Assembly (NCBI GenBank): GCA_951406725.2
Contig: OX597816.1
Span: 167,028,001-167,092,000 of the forward strand
Direction: 5' to 3'
Length of the DNA stretch: 64,000 bases
From: Octopus vulgaris
Taxonomy: Eukaryota
Translations under genes and position numbers: made by a program
Notes under the pieces: generated by a model
The model's database searches: none
Seen by the model: the letters and a program-made list of their open reading frames with translations, nothing else
What the model was told of the DNA's origin: nothing
In this document: positions 1 through 45,049 of the stretch, piece after piece
Layout of the letters: every line of letters starts with the position of its first letter
Numbering within the stretch: the stretch's first letter is position 1

Positions 1-211
1 CATCCTTCTTTTCTCTTTTTGATCTTGTTCTTATTCAACCATGGCTGCCTCTGCATAATTATTTGTGTTGTTGTTTACTTTGTAAAACTGTAAGGGGAGA
101 GGGCTGTTAGCACATCATCCTCTACCCACATTTCTCACATCCACATCTTTACCATATGGGGCCCTAACAAAATCCGATAATAGGTATGGAAGGAAATCTA
201 TCTAATTACTT

Positions 212-17008: not shown

Positions 17009-17309
17009 AGTTAAGTATATAGAAAGATAGAAAGAGAGAGAAAGATAAAATTGTTAGATCAGCCATGGATCAGAACTGGTGAAACGTTGGACAAAATGCC
17101 TGATGCATATTAGTTACGGTCCTTTATGTTCTAAGTTCAAATCCCGCTGAAGTCTGTCTTTGCTCTTTGTCCATTCGGAGTCAATAAAAAAACAGTACCA
17201 TTCAAATATTGGTGTTAATATGATAAACCTAGATCCCGAAACAGACCTGGAGTAGAGAGGGGCATTTACTTGATGAGGTTGAAAACGGAAACGGAAAGAC
17301 TGACGAACC

Positions 17310-17340
<31 letters not shown>

Positions 17341-17381
17341 CCGAACAATTAATCAAACAATCGATTAGTCATTTGTTTAAA

Positions 17382-17654
17382 GGTACTAATTAAGAAGAGT
17401 GGTCCCGGTGCGCGCACTCGCGTACTCACGCATCCGCGCTAGCTAGTCGTGACTAGTCGATCCTTACTTTGTGTTTTTGTGTTTTATTTACTTTGTTTTT
17501 AATAAATTATTTACTTTGTGTAGAAAAATTATTTATTTTGTGTTTTATTTACTTTGCTCGGTAGTCGTTGTAGGATCGACTAGTGACGACTAGCTAGCGC
17601 GGATGCGCGAGTACGCGAGTGCGCGCACCGGGACCACTCTTCTTAAGTAGTACC
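17382..17654. mobile_element. Mutator-like MITE with ~83-bp TIRs
   Basis: Near-perfect CpG-rich TIRs (ggtactaattaagaagagtggtcccggtgcgcgc...); perfect 9-bp TSD ttgtttaaa at 17373-17381 and 17655-17663. Confidence 0.88.
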
Positions 17655-17774
17655 TTGTTTAAATAGTTAACCAATTGATAAATGATAATAAAGTGAAATA
17701 GAACCAGTGTGCGTGTTTATTATTGGCATAATCCCGAGATACAACAAAATGAATTAAGAGAAGACATACATGCA

Positions 17775-28457: not shown

Positions 28458-29434
28458 TACTTAGTATAGCCATAAATACTGTTACAAAATAAAACTTGAA
28501 TTTCAGGATAATGAAACTTTGAACATTTATTTGTGGGCTGAACAAAAAAATAGATTCACTAAATTCATTCAAAACGACCCCCCACCACCACGACTCTGTT
28601 GTCAATACAATGCTTCAAATGCTCAGGCCATTCGTCCATTGCAGTATGCACAATATTACCTGGAAAGTTGGTCATTGCAGTAACAAGAACATGCTTGAGA
28701 GTATCCAATTCTGACCACAGTTTGTAACCCAGAGGATTCAAATCCGGACTCCCAGATAGCTATTCCATTGCCTTCAAGAAGCCAGGAACATTTTGTGAGA
28801 GCCACTCCTGAGTAACCTTGGCTTTGTGTGCTGGGGCTGAGTCCTGTTGGAAGCCTCACATAAACGAAGCTCAGTCACCCTTTCATAAGACACACCTCAC
28901 CAAACCATGACTGAGGCAAGGTGATGGCTTCTTTGAACTTGGTGAATGACCTCAGAAGCTTCCTTAGAGCTGTCAAGGCAGCGAGCTGGCAGAAACGTTA
29001 GCACGCTGGGCAAAATGCTTAGCAGTATTTTGTCTGTCGTTACGTTCTGAGTTCAAATTCCGCCAAAGTCGACTTGGGAGTACCCACAGTGCGAGGACAA
29101 CCTTCCCTTGGAATGTCATTGAGAGTCTGATGATCTACAAACATCTTTATGGTGCGATTCTCTTTACAGAACATTCTGCTAATTCTAAGTGGTACAAGCA
29201 GTTTGAAAATGATGGCCGCATCATGACCTGCCTTGTAAAAACCAACAACAGTTATACGATTTTCTTTGATATTTCATTCCATTGTTAGATAGGAAAATTA
29301 GATCAGTTAATACCTGAAATTCAATGCAGAAGTTTATTAGCTAATGACTGATACAAAGGAAATGCATTTTAGGTGCAAAAACCTATGAAAGATTAAAGGA
29401 AAACATTTGTAACCGTATTTATGGCTATACCTGG
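28458..29434 (-). mobile_element. Degenerate Tc1/mariner (maT-like) transposon with a SINE B head inserted at ~28975-29075
   Basis: TIR gtatagccataaatac.gttacaaa; minus-strand FQQDSAPAH and SPDLNPLGYKLWSEL; TA empty site in unit 1 (~26785). Confidence 0.85.
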
Positions 29435-29628
29435 TAGATCGGAACATACCATCTGCATGGTTACATGCTTACACTCTGTGTGTGTGTTTGTGTGCATATG
29501 TATTACACATACACACACGTTTGAACCGTGGAAAACACGAACCATCGACAAATCTGCACACAAGGTGCGGAGAATTAGGAAGATGATCTGAATGAACGGG
29601 TGCGTCCATAGGATTTTACGCACGAATG

Positions 29629-29671
<43 letters not shown>

Positions 29672-29767
29672 GATATATATATAGACACATGTTGACACTT
29701 ACAGCCAAAGTACCCTTTTTTATAAATACACTTGCATGTGTGTATGTATATATATATATATATATGT

Positions 29768-29820
<53 letters not shown>

Positions 29821-30343
29821 CACACACACACATGTACATCAATGGTTTGTTGAACCTGCAGAAAGGGGAAGTGCCCACGACCATCGCAGTCTTTCCGAAG
29901 CTGGTGAGTTTATGCTGTTAACATTCCATTTAATCTGTTGTAACTCGACACCTGCAGGAAAGACGTAAGCAAGGAGGAGGTGACATACCTACACAAGTTT
30001 CCCCCCACCCTCCGACTTGCCAGGTGATCAATAAGTAACTGAATTACTTATTGGTTGATTCCACAAAAATGGATATTTTTTTAGTGAAATTTTCTACAAA
30101 TATACTTCAGGTGGTGTGGATTCCAATAATATCAGAATTTATAGTTAAAAATCACTCTCGGTGACTAAATCTCTCCTTTATAGGTGCAGGAGCAGCTGTG
30201 TGGTAAGAAGCTTGCTTCCTAACCACAGGGTTCCAGGTTCAGTCCCACAGCGTGGCATCTTGGGCAAGTTTCTTCTACTGTAGCCTCGGGCTGACCAAAG
30301 CTTGTGAGTGGATTTGGTAGACAGAAACTGAAAGAAGCCTGCC

Positions 30344-30408
<65 letters not shown>

Positions 30409-30496
30409 ACAAAAACAATTGCAGCGTGGGAGGTGTTTATAAGCCATTTAAGAAACACACAAAAGCCGTTCGATTCACTCCAACATTTAAGTTTAA

Positions 30497-30547
30497 TTTG
30501 TCAAAATATTTTCATCGCTTTGAGACCGCGACCTGTTCACTGACAAA
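30497..30547 (-). ncRNA. Minimal type I hammerhead ribozyme motif, G3:C8 variant
   Basis: tttgtca-GTGAACA-g-gtcgc(ggtctcaaa)gcgat-GAA-aatatt-t-tgacaaa. Confidence 0.6.
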
Positions 30548-30567
30548 GTCCGTGATACAGCACGGAC

Positions 30568-30617
30568 TTTGTCAGTGAACAGGTCGCGGATTTTAGCGAC
30601 GAAAATATTTTGACAAA
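30568..30617 (+). ncRNA. Minimal type I hammerhead ribozyme motif, G3:C8 variant
   Basis: tttgtca-GTGAACA-g-gtcgc(ggatttta)gcgac-GAA-aatatt-t-tgacaaa: 7-bp helix I, 5-bp helix II, palindromic helix III. Confidence 0.65.
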
Positions 30618-30757
30618 TTAAACTTAAATGTTGGAGTGAATCGAACGGCTTTTGTGTGTTTCTTAAATGGCTTATAAACACCTCCCACGCTGCAATTGTT
30701 TTCGTTTCAGCACACGATCTCAGATCAAATTACTTGCTATGCGAGTACATCTCCGTA

Positions 30758-30851
<94 letters not shown>

Positions 30852-31574
30852 TGTATGTATGTATGTATGTATGTATGTATGAATGAATGTATGTATGTAT
30901 ATATGTATGTGTATGTATTTGTGTGTCTGTATTTGTCCCCCCCCACCACCACCACCATCATTTAGCAACCAATGTTGATGTGTTTACATCCCTGTAACTT
31001 AGCGGTTCCGATTCAACAAAAGAGACTGATAGAATAAGTAGTAGGCTTACAAAAAACAAGTCCTGAGGTTGATTTGTTTGACTAAAGGTGGTGTTCCAGC
31101 ATGGCCTCAGTCAAATGACTGAAACAAATAAAAGAATAAAAGAAGATCAGTGATGTAGCCAGAATGCATGCCAACCGAGATGGCCCTTAATTTTGCCATC
31201 CCCAGAACTGGCACAACCACCTACCCTCGTTCCCACTGGCTACACTTCAGGCACAGACTTTTATGTTCTGAGGTCAAAATTTCACCAACGTCAACTTTGC
31301 CTTTAATCATTTCTGGATCGATAACATTTTTGGAGCAGTGTGGAAATGGTGTGTTTTACTCAAGGGTACAAATGCAACGTCCAGTTCAGGAATCGAACCC
31401 ACAATTTTACGATCATAAGTACAGCACCCTAAGTATTAAGCCTCCATGCACATATAATTACTTATACATACACACACATAATTATGTAAATGTACACACA
31501 CATACAACCATAATTATGTATGTGAGTGTGTGCATGTTTGTGTGTTTACATGCACATACATCATCATCATCATC

Positions 31575-32647
31575 ATCATCATCCTCATTTAACGTCCGCT
31601 TTCCATGCTAGCATGGGTTGGACGGTTCAACTGGAGTCTGGGGAGCCCGAAGGCTGCACCAGGCCCAGTCAGATCTGGCAGTGTTTCTACAGCTGGATGC
31701 CCTTCCTAACGCCAACCACTCCGAGAGTGTAGTGGGTGATTTTATGTGCCACCGACACAGGTGCCAGACGAAGCTGGCGAACGGCCACGCTCGGATGGTG
31801 TTTTTTATGTGCCACCGACACAGGTGCCAGACGAGGCTGGCAGACGGCCACGCTCGGATGGTGTTTTTTATGTGCCACCGACACAGGTGCCAGACGAGGC
31901 TGGCAGACGGCCACGCTCGGATGGTGTTTTTTATGTGCCACCGACACAGGTGCCAGAGAAGCTGGCGAACGGCCACGCTCTGTGCCACCGACACAGGTGC
32001 CAGACGAAGCTGGCGAACGGCCACGCTCGGATGATGTTTTTTATGTGCCACCGACACAGGTGCCAGATGAGGCTGGCGAACGGCCACGATCGGATGGTGT
32101 TTGTTACGTGCCCACAGCACGGAGGCCAGTCGATGCGGTACTGGCTACGGCCACGTTCGGATGGTTTTCTTGTGTGCCACCGGCACTGGTACCACAAAGA
32201 TACAAATTCCATTGATGTTCATCTATTTTGATTTGGTTTGATTTTCACTTGCCTCAACAGGTCTTCACAACTGTCACACACTTGCCTCAACAGGTCTTCA
32301 CAAGTGTCACATACTTGCCTCAACAGGTCTTCACAAGTGTCATAAGAAGGAAGGTATGCACAGGTGGACTGACTACGTCCCAGGTAGGGGCCACGGGTTA
32401 TGGCCTGACTAGTCTTGCCGGGTCTTTGGATGGTGTTTTTATGTGCCACCAACACAGGTGCCAGATGAGGCTGGCGAACGGCCACGATCGGATGGTGTTT
32501 GTTACGTGCCCACAGCACGGAGGCCAGTCGATGTGGTACTGGCTACCGCCACGTTCGGATGGTTTTCTTGTGTGCCACCGGCATTGGTACCACAAAGATG
32601 GTACCATTGATGTTCATCTATTTTGATTTGTTTTGATTTGATTTGAT
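31575..32647 (-). mobile_element. SINE-like family D with expanded internal minisatellites
   Basis: Tail (gat)n and core gttggcgttaggaagggcatccagctgt; ~62-bp units x5-6, 32-bp units x3 and a ~215-bp duplication. Confidence 0.8.
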
Positions 32648-44090: not shown

Positions 44091-44330
44091 CATCGTTTAG
44101 CATCCGCTTTCCATGCTGGCATGGGTTGGACGGTGCAACTGGTGTCTGGGAAGCCAGAAGGCTGCACCAGGCCCAGTCTGATCTGGCAATGTTTCTACGG
44201 CTGGATGCCGTTCCTAACGCCAACCACTCCATGAGTGTAGTGGGTGCTTTTTATGTGCCACCAGCAAGGAAGCCAGTTGGGGCGGCGCTGGCAACGGCCA
44301 CGTTCGGATGATTCTCTTATGTGCCACAGG
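43727..44330. mobile_element. Two family D copies tail-to-tail (+ 43727-44040, - 44090-44330) around (TAA)n
   Basis: Core aggaagggcatccagctgtagaaa and its reverse complement. Confidence 0.8.
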
Positions 44331-44374
44331 CACCTGATGAAGGCTGGAGGGTATATCAGCTGAAACGTTGTGTT
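44329..44374 (+). ncRNA. Minimal type I hammerhead ribozyme motif (canonical core) in a Penelope-like fragment extending to ~44460
   Basis: ggcac-CTGATGA-a-ggctg(gagggtatat)cagct-GAAACGTT-gtgtt. Confidence 0.75.
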
Positions 44375-45049
44375 AACAACAAACAAGATGAGGACAAATA
44401 CCCGTCAAATTTAAATAATGTAAGTAATGTACATAACTCCTCATCTCTTAAATATAGAAAAAAAAGGGATGATAAATAGTTTTATAAAAGCATTAAATAT
44501 GCAAGTCTTTATTCATCATCCAACATTAATCGAACATGATGAGGTAATTTAAAACGAAATTTCTTAGCGAATTTTCCTACCGTAAAAATGTTTAGGGTGA
44601 AAGTTTCTATGACAACCTCAAACAATTAGTGAAAGCAAGGTGAATGCTACCAAATCGGACTTGTTTACGATTGACAGCTATTGCATAAACCCTACTTCCT
44701 TGGTTCTCAAGTGTTGCTCTGTAGATTTATAGAAATATGATTTAAGATTTTAGACAGTCCATGGTAAGGGTTGAGCATCTTGAATAATGTGTTATACATA
44801 ATTTTGTTATACATAAGTATTCCTCACCATTGTCATCATCATCATTGCCATCATCATCATTGTTGTCATCAGTATTATTATTATCGTTGCCGTTGTCATC
44901 ATTATTATCATCATGAACGTCATCATTTTTTTAATGCCCACCTATTCATCCTTGCATGGATCAGATGGAATTTATTGAGGCAGATCTTTTGGGCCATTCT
45001 TGCAACATTCACCCACCTTTTAACAAAATTGCAGGGTGGCAGAATTTCT

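What the first reader, a model, noticed from the sequence alone, without database searches (positions are those of the whole stretch)
30405..30755. Palindromic Penelope-like insert carrying two hammerheads with a swapped G3:C8 catalytic core
Seen: each arm of a ~290-bp palindrome folds as a minimal type I hammerhead (7-bp helix I, 5-bp helix II, GAAA, self-complementary AATATT helix III), reading outward. The core is GUGAACA rather than CUGAnGA. The arms differ mainly in loop II while helix II pairing is kept. Established: C3 and G8 form a tertiary Watson-Crick pair and the double swap restores cleavage; Penelope-like elements carry minimal hammerheads with palindromic helix III thought to act as dimers. 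Inference: a natural compensatory-variant ribozyme family that CUGAnGA-based searches would miss. I cannot tell whether it has been described.
Basis: partly seen in the sequence, partly recalled or inferred. Interest (0 to 1): 0.82.

Follow-up and report, generated by a model that had tools for sequence, protein, structure and literature searches.

The report
Octopus retroelement hammerhead, swapped core pair
This palindrome is a truncated, back-to-back insertion of a young Penelope-like jumping element whose thousands of copies carry a hammerhead-ribozyme fold with two paired core letters swapped (G3:C8), likely a slow natural variant whose cutting is untested and probably not needed for jumping.

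Summary
Both arms read as minimal type I hammerheads with a GUGAACA core. The arm is the pseudo-LTR of a young Penelope-like element with an RT plus GIY-YIG ORF and a Neptune-type linker. About 7,500 genome sites match its core pattern (control 3), and 64 of 71 sampled copies are G3:C8.

The palindrome is ordinary Penelope architecture: 63 of 100 copies have an inverted partner. Read through, it folds into one hairpin that buries both ribozymes.

Copies rarely start at the predicted cut (1 of 100); 36 start 19-26 nt upstream of G3, often after an extra G, so the templates were mostly uncut. Older relatives keep the helices but show C:G, U·G, C·A and U:A at 3:8, so strict pairing is not enforced in this lineage.

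Lab G3:C8 swaps rescue cleavage in part, and natural U3:A8 is published. I found no natural G3:C8 in nine literature searches, but could not read Lünse 2017. This scan noted G3:C8 before in phage and protist DNA (unchecked notes). Verdict: new variant of a known kind; cleavage untested.

The parts
30348..30405 (.). (TA)n tract, left flank of the insertion
   Evidence: sequence; most other copies also sit in (TA)n
30409..30553 (-). Inverted, 5'-truncated pseudo-LTR copy without the tail
   Evidence: 95% to the element in L101; same layout in long palindromic copies L033 and L035-L037
30497..30547 (-). Minimal type I hammerhead fold, G3 at 30540, C8 at 30535, U17 at 30504; loop II patch from another subfamily
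30554..30756 (+). Pseudo-LTR plus tail of the young Penelope-like family (short solo copy)
   Evidence: 98.6-99% to both pseudo-LTRs of L101; 40 near-identical copies scored of 1,342 candidates
30568..30617 (+). Minimal type I hammerhead fold with G3:C8 core; predicted cut after 30610
30575..30581 (+). Core GTGAACA: G3 at 30575, C8 at 30580
   Evidence: G3:C8 in 64 of 71 sampled copies
30604..30609 (+). Self-complementary helix III hexamer AATATT
   Evidence: self-duplex only -0.2 kcal/mol
30667..30756 (+). Start codon and first 30 codons of the element's ORF, cut off here
   Evidence: the ORF continues from this ATG in L103, L104, L115, L116 and L120 and in L101
30706..30756 (+). Tail of about 50 nt, present on one arm only
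   Evidence: 3' ends of 100 copies: 54 at G3+183..188, 37 at G3+120..129
30757..30815 (.). (TA)n tract, right flank

Best explanation
The locus is a truncated, back-to-back double insertion of the pseudo-LTR of a young Penelope-like retrotransposon into a (TA)n tract, and the G3:C8 hammerhead fold is the family-wide form of that element's minimal hammerhead, likely a slow, dimer- or protein-dependent ribozyme whose cutting is probably dispensable for retrotransposition. Shown: the linked RT/GIY-YIG ORF, the partial-tandem layout, the copy number, the copy ends and the fold prediction. Inferred steps: (1) transcription likely starts about 22 nt upstream of G3, with a cap. (2) The element's endonuclease nicks (TA)n, and reverse transcription likely starts inside the RNA about 185 nt downstream of G3. 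(3) It runs through the uncut hammerhead to the RNA's 5' end, giving ~205-nt solo copies. (4) A second copy primed on the other strand near +125 makes the palindrome. (5) Cleavage after U17 would need a second hammerhead or the element's protein, and would remove the capped 58-nt leader ahead of the ATG. (6) The swap probably arose from a C3:G8-type ancestor through unpaired intermediates that were tolerated because mobility does not depend on cutting. It arose in a U17 background that avoids a G3-C17 trap. This particular copy is probably inert.
For: PLE identity: 998-aa ORF with YVDD, a C-x3-C-x2-C linker and GTVY..YIGET; homologues named RT-domain or GIY-YIG-domain proteins, best Octopus vulgaris 57%; pseudo-LTR on both sides of the ORF in L101 and L100. 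Inverted partners in 63 of 100 copies, matching the architecture described in PMC8557442 (passages). Uncut templates: 84 of 100 copies start at G3+27 or earlier, 36 at -19..-26, 1 at the cut. An extra G precedes the AG in 23 of 34 copies that do not continue into the upstream template. Fold: helix I pair probabilities 0.70-1.0 and helix II 1.0 from the putative start. Hammerhead identity: extra nucleotide after A9, G10.1-C11.1 pair and palindromic helix III as in PMC4209133 (parts 1-2 of 4). Across families, helix II and helix III change on both sides (rows picked by core patterns). In vitro, C3G/G8C partly restores a PLE hammerhead that needs protein, and cleavage is not needed for insertion (PMC11167929 passages). 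The G:C swap was the only rescuing double mutant in that region of the core (PMC9901934 passages). G3-C8 is more active without C17 (PMC3884650 passage, 'data not shown'). U17 is in 89 of 90 family copies and 49 of 60 older S2 copies.
Against: No cleavage data. Older relatives S2 show U·G 50, C·A 16, U:A 14, C:G 11 and other 9 in the first 100 of 133 hits (counted by hand), and C·A clusters on a rough tree (9 changes against 14.9 shuffled, 0 of 500), so non-Watson-Crick masters probably spread. Inside the family, core and helices are not clearly more conserved than the spacer and ORF: columns with more than 10% minor allele number 2 of 39 against 13 of 120. The helix III self-duplex is only -0.2 kcal/mol, and G3·U17 pairs with probability 0.67 in the monomer. 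Minimal PLE hammerheads cleave poorly even with the normal core. Homology outside the hammerhead is modest for S2 (E=0.016, above 500 shuffles) and not shown directly for S1. The start site and cap are inferred from DNA ends only; the same spot also looks like a splice acceptor.
Confidence: 0.62

Rival explanations
1. The motif is a hammerhead relic kept for another role (a binding fold for the element's protein, or internal promoter sequence); positions 3 and 8 drift, and G3:C8 pairs by coincidence.
For: U·G and C·A classes in S2; uncut templates; the motif lies in the first 65 nt after the inferred start, where Drosophila Penelope has an internal promoter (PMC2377424 passages); weak helix III; Naiads spread without canonical hammerheads.
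Against: Between families, the core positions seen to vary are 3, 7 and 8, the ones that hammerhead biochemistry allows, though the other core letters were fixed by my search patterns. Helix III changes on both sides and stays self-complementary. G3:C8 needs two transversions from C:G or from U·G. Positions not fixed by the pattern (U16.1, U17, helix I 3' strand) are kept in 44-54 of 60 S2 copies.
Confidence: 0.25
2. It is an efficient ribozyme that normally processes the element's RNA (for example into circles from tandem arrays), and the swap was selected to keep full activity.
For: Head-to-tail arrays with 166-209 nt spacing exist elsewhere (L041, L042/L062, L117) and would supply cis dimers; G:C rescue in vitro. 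Cut RNA may simply not be copied into DNA.
Against: Only 1 of 100 copies starts at the cut and 3 within 3 nt of it; same-strand pairs were found in 1 of the 81 sampled loci; rescue is only partial in a PLE hammerhead.
Confidence: 0.11
3. The palindrome or the odd core is an assembly artefact or a chance match.
For: Raw reads for this locus were not checked; the left arm is a mosaic found whole only at this locus among the 40 candidates scored.
Against: Thousands of exact genome matches against controls of 0-3; the GTGAACA core is in contigs of four runs under four organism labels; inverted pairs are the norm.
Confidence: 0.02

Closest known systems
Minimal type I hammerheads of metazoan Penelope-like elements (Cervera & de la Peña 2014, PMC4209133)
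   Same: In pseudo-LTRs; extra nucleotide after A9; G10.1-C11.1; palindromic helix III; thousands of solo motifs; pairs on opposite strands 100-700 bp apart are mentioned; a natural U3-A8 core variant is reported.
   Different: G3:C8 instead of C3:G8 or U3:A8; no GUGAnCA core in the two searchable supplement files; helix I is 7 bp and helix III a 6-nt palindrome.
PAc Poseidon element of Anolis (Frangieh et al. 2024, PMC11167929)
   Same: Hammerhead at the pseudo-LTR/ORF junction; internal RT initiation defines the tail; AT-rich targets; uncut RNA is the main template.
   Different: PAc has C3:G8, and G3:C8 was an engineered rescue; its ATG lies inside the hammerhead, whereas here it is 57 nt after the cut; this element has a Neptune-type linker.
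Neptune-type EN+ Penelope-like elements (as described in Craig et al. 2021, PMC8557442)
   Same: RT then GIY-YIG with CCHH, CX2-5CxxC linker, microsatellite targeting, partial tandems, inverted 5'-truncated copies, tail at one end.
   Different: Clade placement was not tested by a tree with references; the tail is about 50-60 nt rather than 30-40.
Natural hammerhead core variants (Perreault et al. 2011, PMC3088659)
   Same: 3:8 covariation seen in nature.
   Different: The passages read report U3:A8 only.
Non-LTR retrozymes
   Same: Short tandem arrays with type I hammerheads occur in this family elsewhere (L041, L062, L117).
   Different: This locus is an inverted pair, not a tandem array.

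Membership tests
EN+ Penelope-like element (Neptune type) | Single ORF with RT followed by a GIY-YIG endonuclease | tested here: met
   P0002, 998 aa, motifs seen by inspection; named homologues. Pfam returned 0 families for the 524-aa piece P0001.
EN+ Penelope-like element (Neptune type) | Pseudo-LTRs from a partial tandem | tested here: met
   L101: 3'UTR-hammerhead-ORF-3'UTR-hammerhead-tail
EN+ Penelope-like element (Neptune type) | Inverted 5'-truncated copy and a tail at one end | tested here: met
EN+ Penelope-like element (Neptune type) | CX2-5CxxC linker and CCHH motif | tested here: met
   seen in alignment A2; definition
EN+ Penelope-like element (Neptune type) | Insertion into microsatellites | tested here: met
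   (TA)n flanks here and in most copies
EN+ Penelope-like element (Neptune type) | RT phylogeny places it in Neptune rather than Nematis | not tested
   no named reference set was fetched
Minimal type I hammerhead of PLEs | Helices I and II around the core, type I order | tested here: met
Minimal type I hammerhead of PLEs | CUGAnGA box | tested here: not met
   GUGAACA; U4, G5, A6 and A9 kept, 3 and 8 swapped
Minimal type I hammerhead of PLEs | Watson-Crick pair possible between 3 and 8 | tested here: met
   G:C in 64 of 71 copies; older relatives are mixed
Minimal type I hammerhead of PLEs | Extra nucleotide after A9; G10.1-C11.1; GAAA; UH site | tested here: met
   the left arm has G·U at 10.1-11.1
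Minimal type I hammerhead of PLEs | Self-complementary helix III for dimer formation | tested here: met
   AAUAUU, but the duplex is only -0.2 kcal/mol; two-sided change against relatives
Minimal type I hammerhead of PLEs | Site-specific self-cleavage | not testable with these tools
   indirect only: no pile-up of copy 5' ends at the cut
Rfam hammerhead families | Covariance-model match | tested here: not met
   no hammerhead among 73 matches at E<=10 in 29000-32000
Non-LTR retrozyme | Head-to-tail monomers, each with a hammerhead | tested here: not met
   inverted pair at this locus; arrays at other loci

The most novel reading that the evidence does not exclude
Octopus genomes hold an active natural G3:C8 hammerhead in thousands of copies, together with a fossil series of the same ribozyme at C:G, U·G, C·A and U:A. 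This would record a catalytic-core base pair crossing its fitness valley in nature. The copy ends add genome-scale evidence that Penelope-like elements copy capped, uncut RNA, so the hammerhead would be a brake on the mRNA rather than the maker of the template.
Probability: 0.3. Interest if true: 0.72.

Novelty: new variant of a known kind. Interest (0 to 1): 0.5.

Why it matters
Descriptor searches fixed on CUGAnGA or U3:A8 miss this family, so some elements scored as lacking hammerheads may carry swapped cores. The element is young (many identical copies, near-intact ORFs) and has relatives with other 3:8 states. That makes two open questions testable on natural sequences: what Penelope hammerheads are for, and how a paired catalytic core changes in evolution. 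The single locus is an ordinary dead copy.

Tried and rejected
Rfam scan: no hammerhead, only microsatellite-driven miRNA hits. Pfam on P0001: none. Search for a second G3:C8 family: 317 hits against 153 control; in the 100 listed, the excess is a recurring SINE-like repeat plus mutated copies of this family, so no second family was seen. Metagenome pattern scan: one hit, inside bacterial-looking coding sequence, treated as chance. Sequencing runs: no RNA holder listed; the four runs laid are contigs and say nothing on RNA ends, splicing or level. Spliced-leader idea for the 5' pile-up: a branch-point-like hexamer and an AG acceptor precede the hammerhead, but no shared upstream exon or matching donor was found, so I prefer a start site. 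The S1 flank profile did not beat 500 shuffles against the window copy. A dimer energy was set aside because the test structure left a long loop unfolded. Lünse et al. 2017 is not held. No earlier notes of this scan exist for this genome or sequence.

Full report
OBSERVATION. On the + strand: helix I 30568-30574/30611-30617, core GTGAACA from 30575, an extra G, a 5-bp helix II, GAA, AATATT and U17 at 30610. The - strand arm has the same layout from G3 at 30540. Each arm alone folds helices I and II (z -2.41 and -1.36). The whole stretch folds as one hairpin of -251.8 kcal/mol, so a read-through RNA holds one hammerhead paired to its antisense. Rfam gives no hammerhead hit. The left arm equals the right arm except for a loop II/11.1 patch and one distal base. 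That patch is the common form of another subfamily, so the arm is a mosaic, not evidence of covariation at this locus.

WHAT IT BELONGS TO. The window lies in a 2.8-Gb genome. The best named protein relative is from Octopus vulgaris (57%), so I infer an octopus. An 18-letter pattern with positions 3, 7 and 8 free has 7,523 matches (control 3), the core-to-GAAA pattern 6,727 (control 0, older relatives included), and a downstream 20-mer 10,518 (control 0). Following copies upstream gave a ~1-kb 3'UTR and an ORF ending in a GIY-YIG domain. L099 holds a 998-aa open stretch with YVDD, a C-x3-C-x2-C linker and GTVY..YIGET. L101 shows a partial tandem, 3'UTR-hammerhead-ORF-3'UTR-hammerhead-tail, with the ATG at the place of window 30667; its ORF is broken. 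Pfam found nothing for the 524-aa piece, so the domain calls rest on motifs and named homologues. Long palindromic copies of up to 5.3 kb exist, and 63 of 100 sampled copies have an inverted partner within 400 bp. Inverted 5'-truncated copies, a one-sided tail and microsatellite targeting are described for these elements in PMC8557442 (passages). The palindrome is therefore ordinary. Contigs of four public runs under four organism labels carry the same GTGAACA core.

COPY ENDS. I took the first 100 matches on C1 of an anchor lying downstream of the cut and mapped their ends against L101. 3' ends: 54 at G3+183..188 and 37 at +120..129. 5' ends: 36 at -19..-26; 16 at -7 (many probably reach further, hidden by subfamily differences); 5 beyond -36; 1 exactly at the predicted cut (+36) and 3 within 3 nt of it. 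In all, 84 start at +27 or earlier. The sample holds some duplicates (L180/L181 and a palindromic unit repeated at seven loci). Among 68 distinct copies with an intact leader, 44 keep the AG at -22/-21. Ten of those continue into the template; of the other 34, 23 have a G before it where the template has T or C (11 of 19 outside palindromes). I read this as the copied cap of a transcript starting at -22, which is inference. The same place looks like a splice acceptor, but no upstream exon was found. Either way, the RNA copied into DNA was mostly uncut. This agrees with the Anolis PAc element, where RT starts internally, uncut RNA is the main template, and the hammerhead needs protein (PMC11167929, passages).

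THE CORE. G3:C8 is in 64 of 71 copies with both positions aligned; the other seven are single copies. Inside the family the only common helix changes are two wobbles. Columns with more than 10% minor allele: core 0 of 9, helices 2 of 30, loop II 4 of 8, spacer 4 of 36, ORF and tail 9 of 84. That is weak evidence of constraint.

OLDER RELATIVES. S1 has a changed helix II pair and C17. It is C:G in 5 of 7 entries of the unbiased list (hand count; the other 93 entries are G:C in 86, none C:G). PLE protein matches lie beside 4 of 30 S1 loci, and its helix I is imperfect next to the core. S2 keeps helices I and II and U17 and has a different helix III. No PLE ORF was tied to S2 itself. A profile of its downstream flank (21 of 25 rows; four S1-like rows dropped) hits window 30681-30750 at E=0.016 and above 500 shuffles, while the S1 profile did not. 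On 24 rows chosen by core patterns, 6 of 13 pairs change on both sides, including 3:8 and 15.2:16.2; the choice of rows biases this. With 3 and 8 left free, the first 100 of 133 S2 hits are U·G 50, C·A 16, U:A 14, C:G 11 and other 9 (hand count). On a rough tree of 85 copies without the core, C·A clusters (9 changes against 14.9; 0 of 500 shuffles), while U·G and C:G mix; the bootstrap had not settled. So masters without a Watson-Crick 3:8 pair probably spread. This offers a route to the swap, and it also weakens the claim that G:C was selected for cutting.

WOULD IT CUT? For: C3G/G8C partly rescues a PLE hammerhead; the G:C swap was the only rescuing double mutant in that region in a full pairwise scan (PMC9901934, passages); G3-C8 does better without C17 (PMC3884650, one passage marked data not shown), and this family has U17 in 89 of 90 copies. 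Against: minimal PLE hammerheads are weak even with the normal core (PMC4209133, parts 1-2 of 4); the AAUAUU duplex is -0.2 kcal/mol, and G3·U17 forms with probability 0.67 in the monomer. I put measurable cleavage as a dimer or with protein at about 0.55-0.6, and a routine processing role at about 0.1. Tandem arrays that could supply cis dimers exist (L041, L062, L117) but were rare in the unbiased sample (1 of 81 loci).

NOVELTY. Natural U3:A8 is reported in PMC4209133 and PMC3088659 (passages). Nine searches showed no report of a natural G3:C8, and the two searchable supplement files of PMC4209133 lack GUGAnCA (one file was not searchable). Also seen as passages: PMC6765202, PMC8495972, PMC6155905, PMC10085705 and PMC2377424, and part 1 of 5 of bioRxiv 10.64898/2026.07.22.740005. 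Lünse et al. 2017, the largest survey of these ribozymes, could not be read and may hold the variant. Przybilski & Hammann 2007 was seen only as a reference. Unchecked notes of this scan report G3:C8 in phages and in protist Penelope-like elements, so the swap may recur; I did not test them. Verdict: new variant of a known kind, interest 0.5.

Noticed in passing
L101:4195-4222, just upstream of the hammerhead: A branch-point-like hexamer, a pyrimidine tract and an AG sit right before the spot where most copies start; Drosophila Penelope has an intron ending at helix I. No donor or upstream exon was found.
   Followed up: partly
L041, L042/L062, L117: Head-to-tail arrays of the pseudo-LTR with 166-209 nt spacing, separated by (TA)n: retrozyme-like, natural dimer substrates.
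   Followed up: partly
L116: Two tandem units with G3·G8 and a broken helix II lie directly upstream of an ORF start.
   Followed up: no
L169, L173, L212, L213, L216, L217, L222 (G000:C1): The same palindrome centre recurs at seven distant loci, as if an inverted pair had been copied as a unit.
   Followed up: no
window 17257-17749: Decayed copy of the older S2 family (U3·G8 core), interrupted by a ~240-bp insert with inverted ends (about 17395-17645).
   Followed up: partly
window 44329-44375 (+): A descriptor match with a canonical CTGATGA core, a 6-bp helix II and a weak helix I; it may be a chance join of two repeats.
   Followed up: no
window 31745-32599: 63-bp tandem-like repeat family (6 copies of an 87-nt register).
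   Followed up: no
G000, one search list: A very common SINE-like repeat contains a GCGAAA stretch, and its point mutants mimic the G3:C8 descriptor; a source of false positives.
   Followed up: partly
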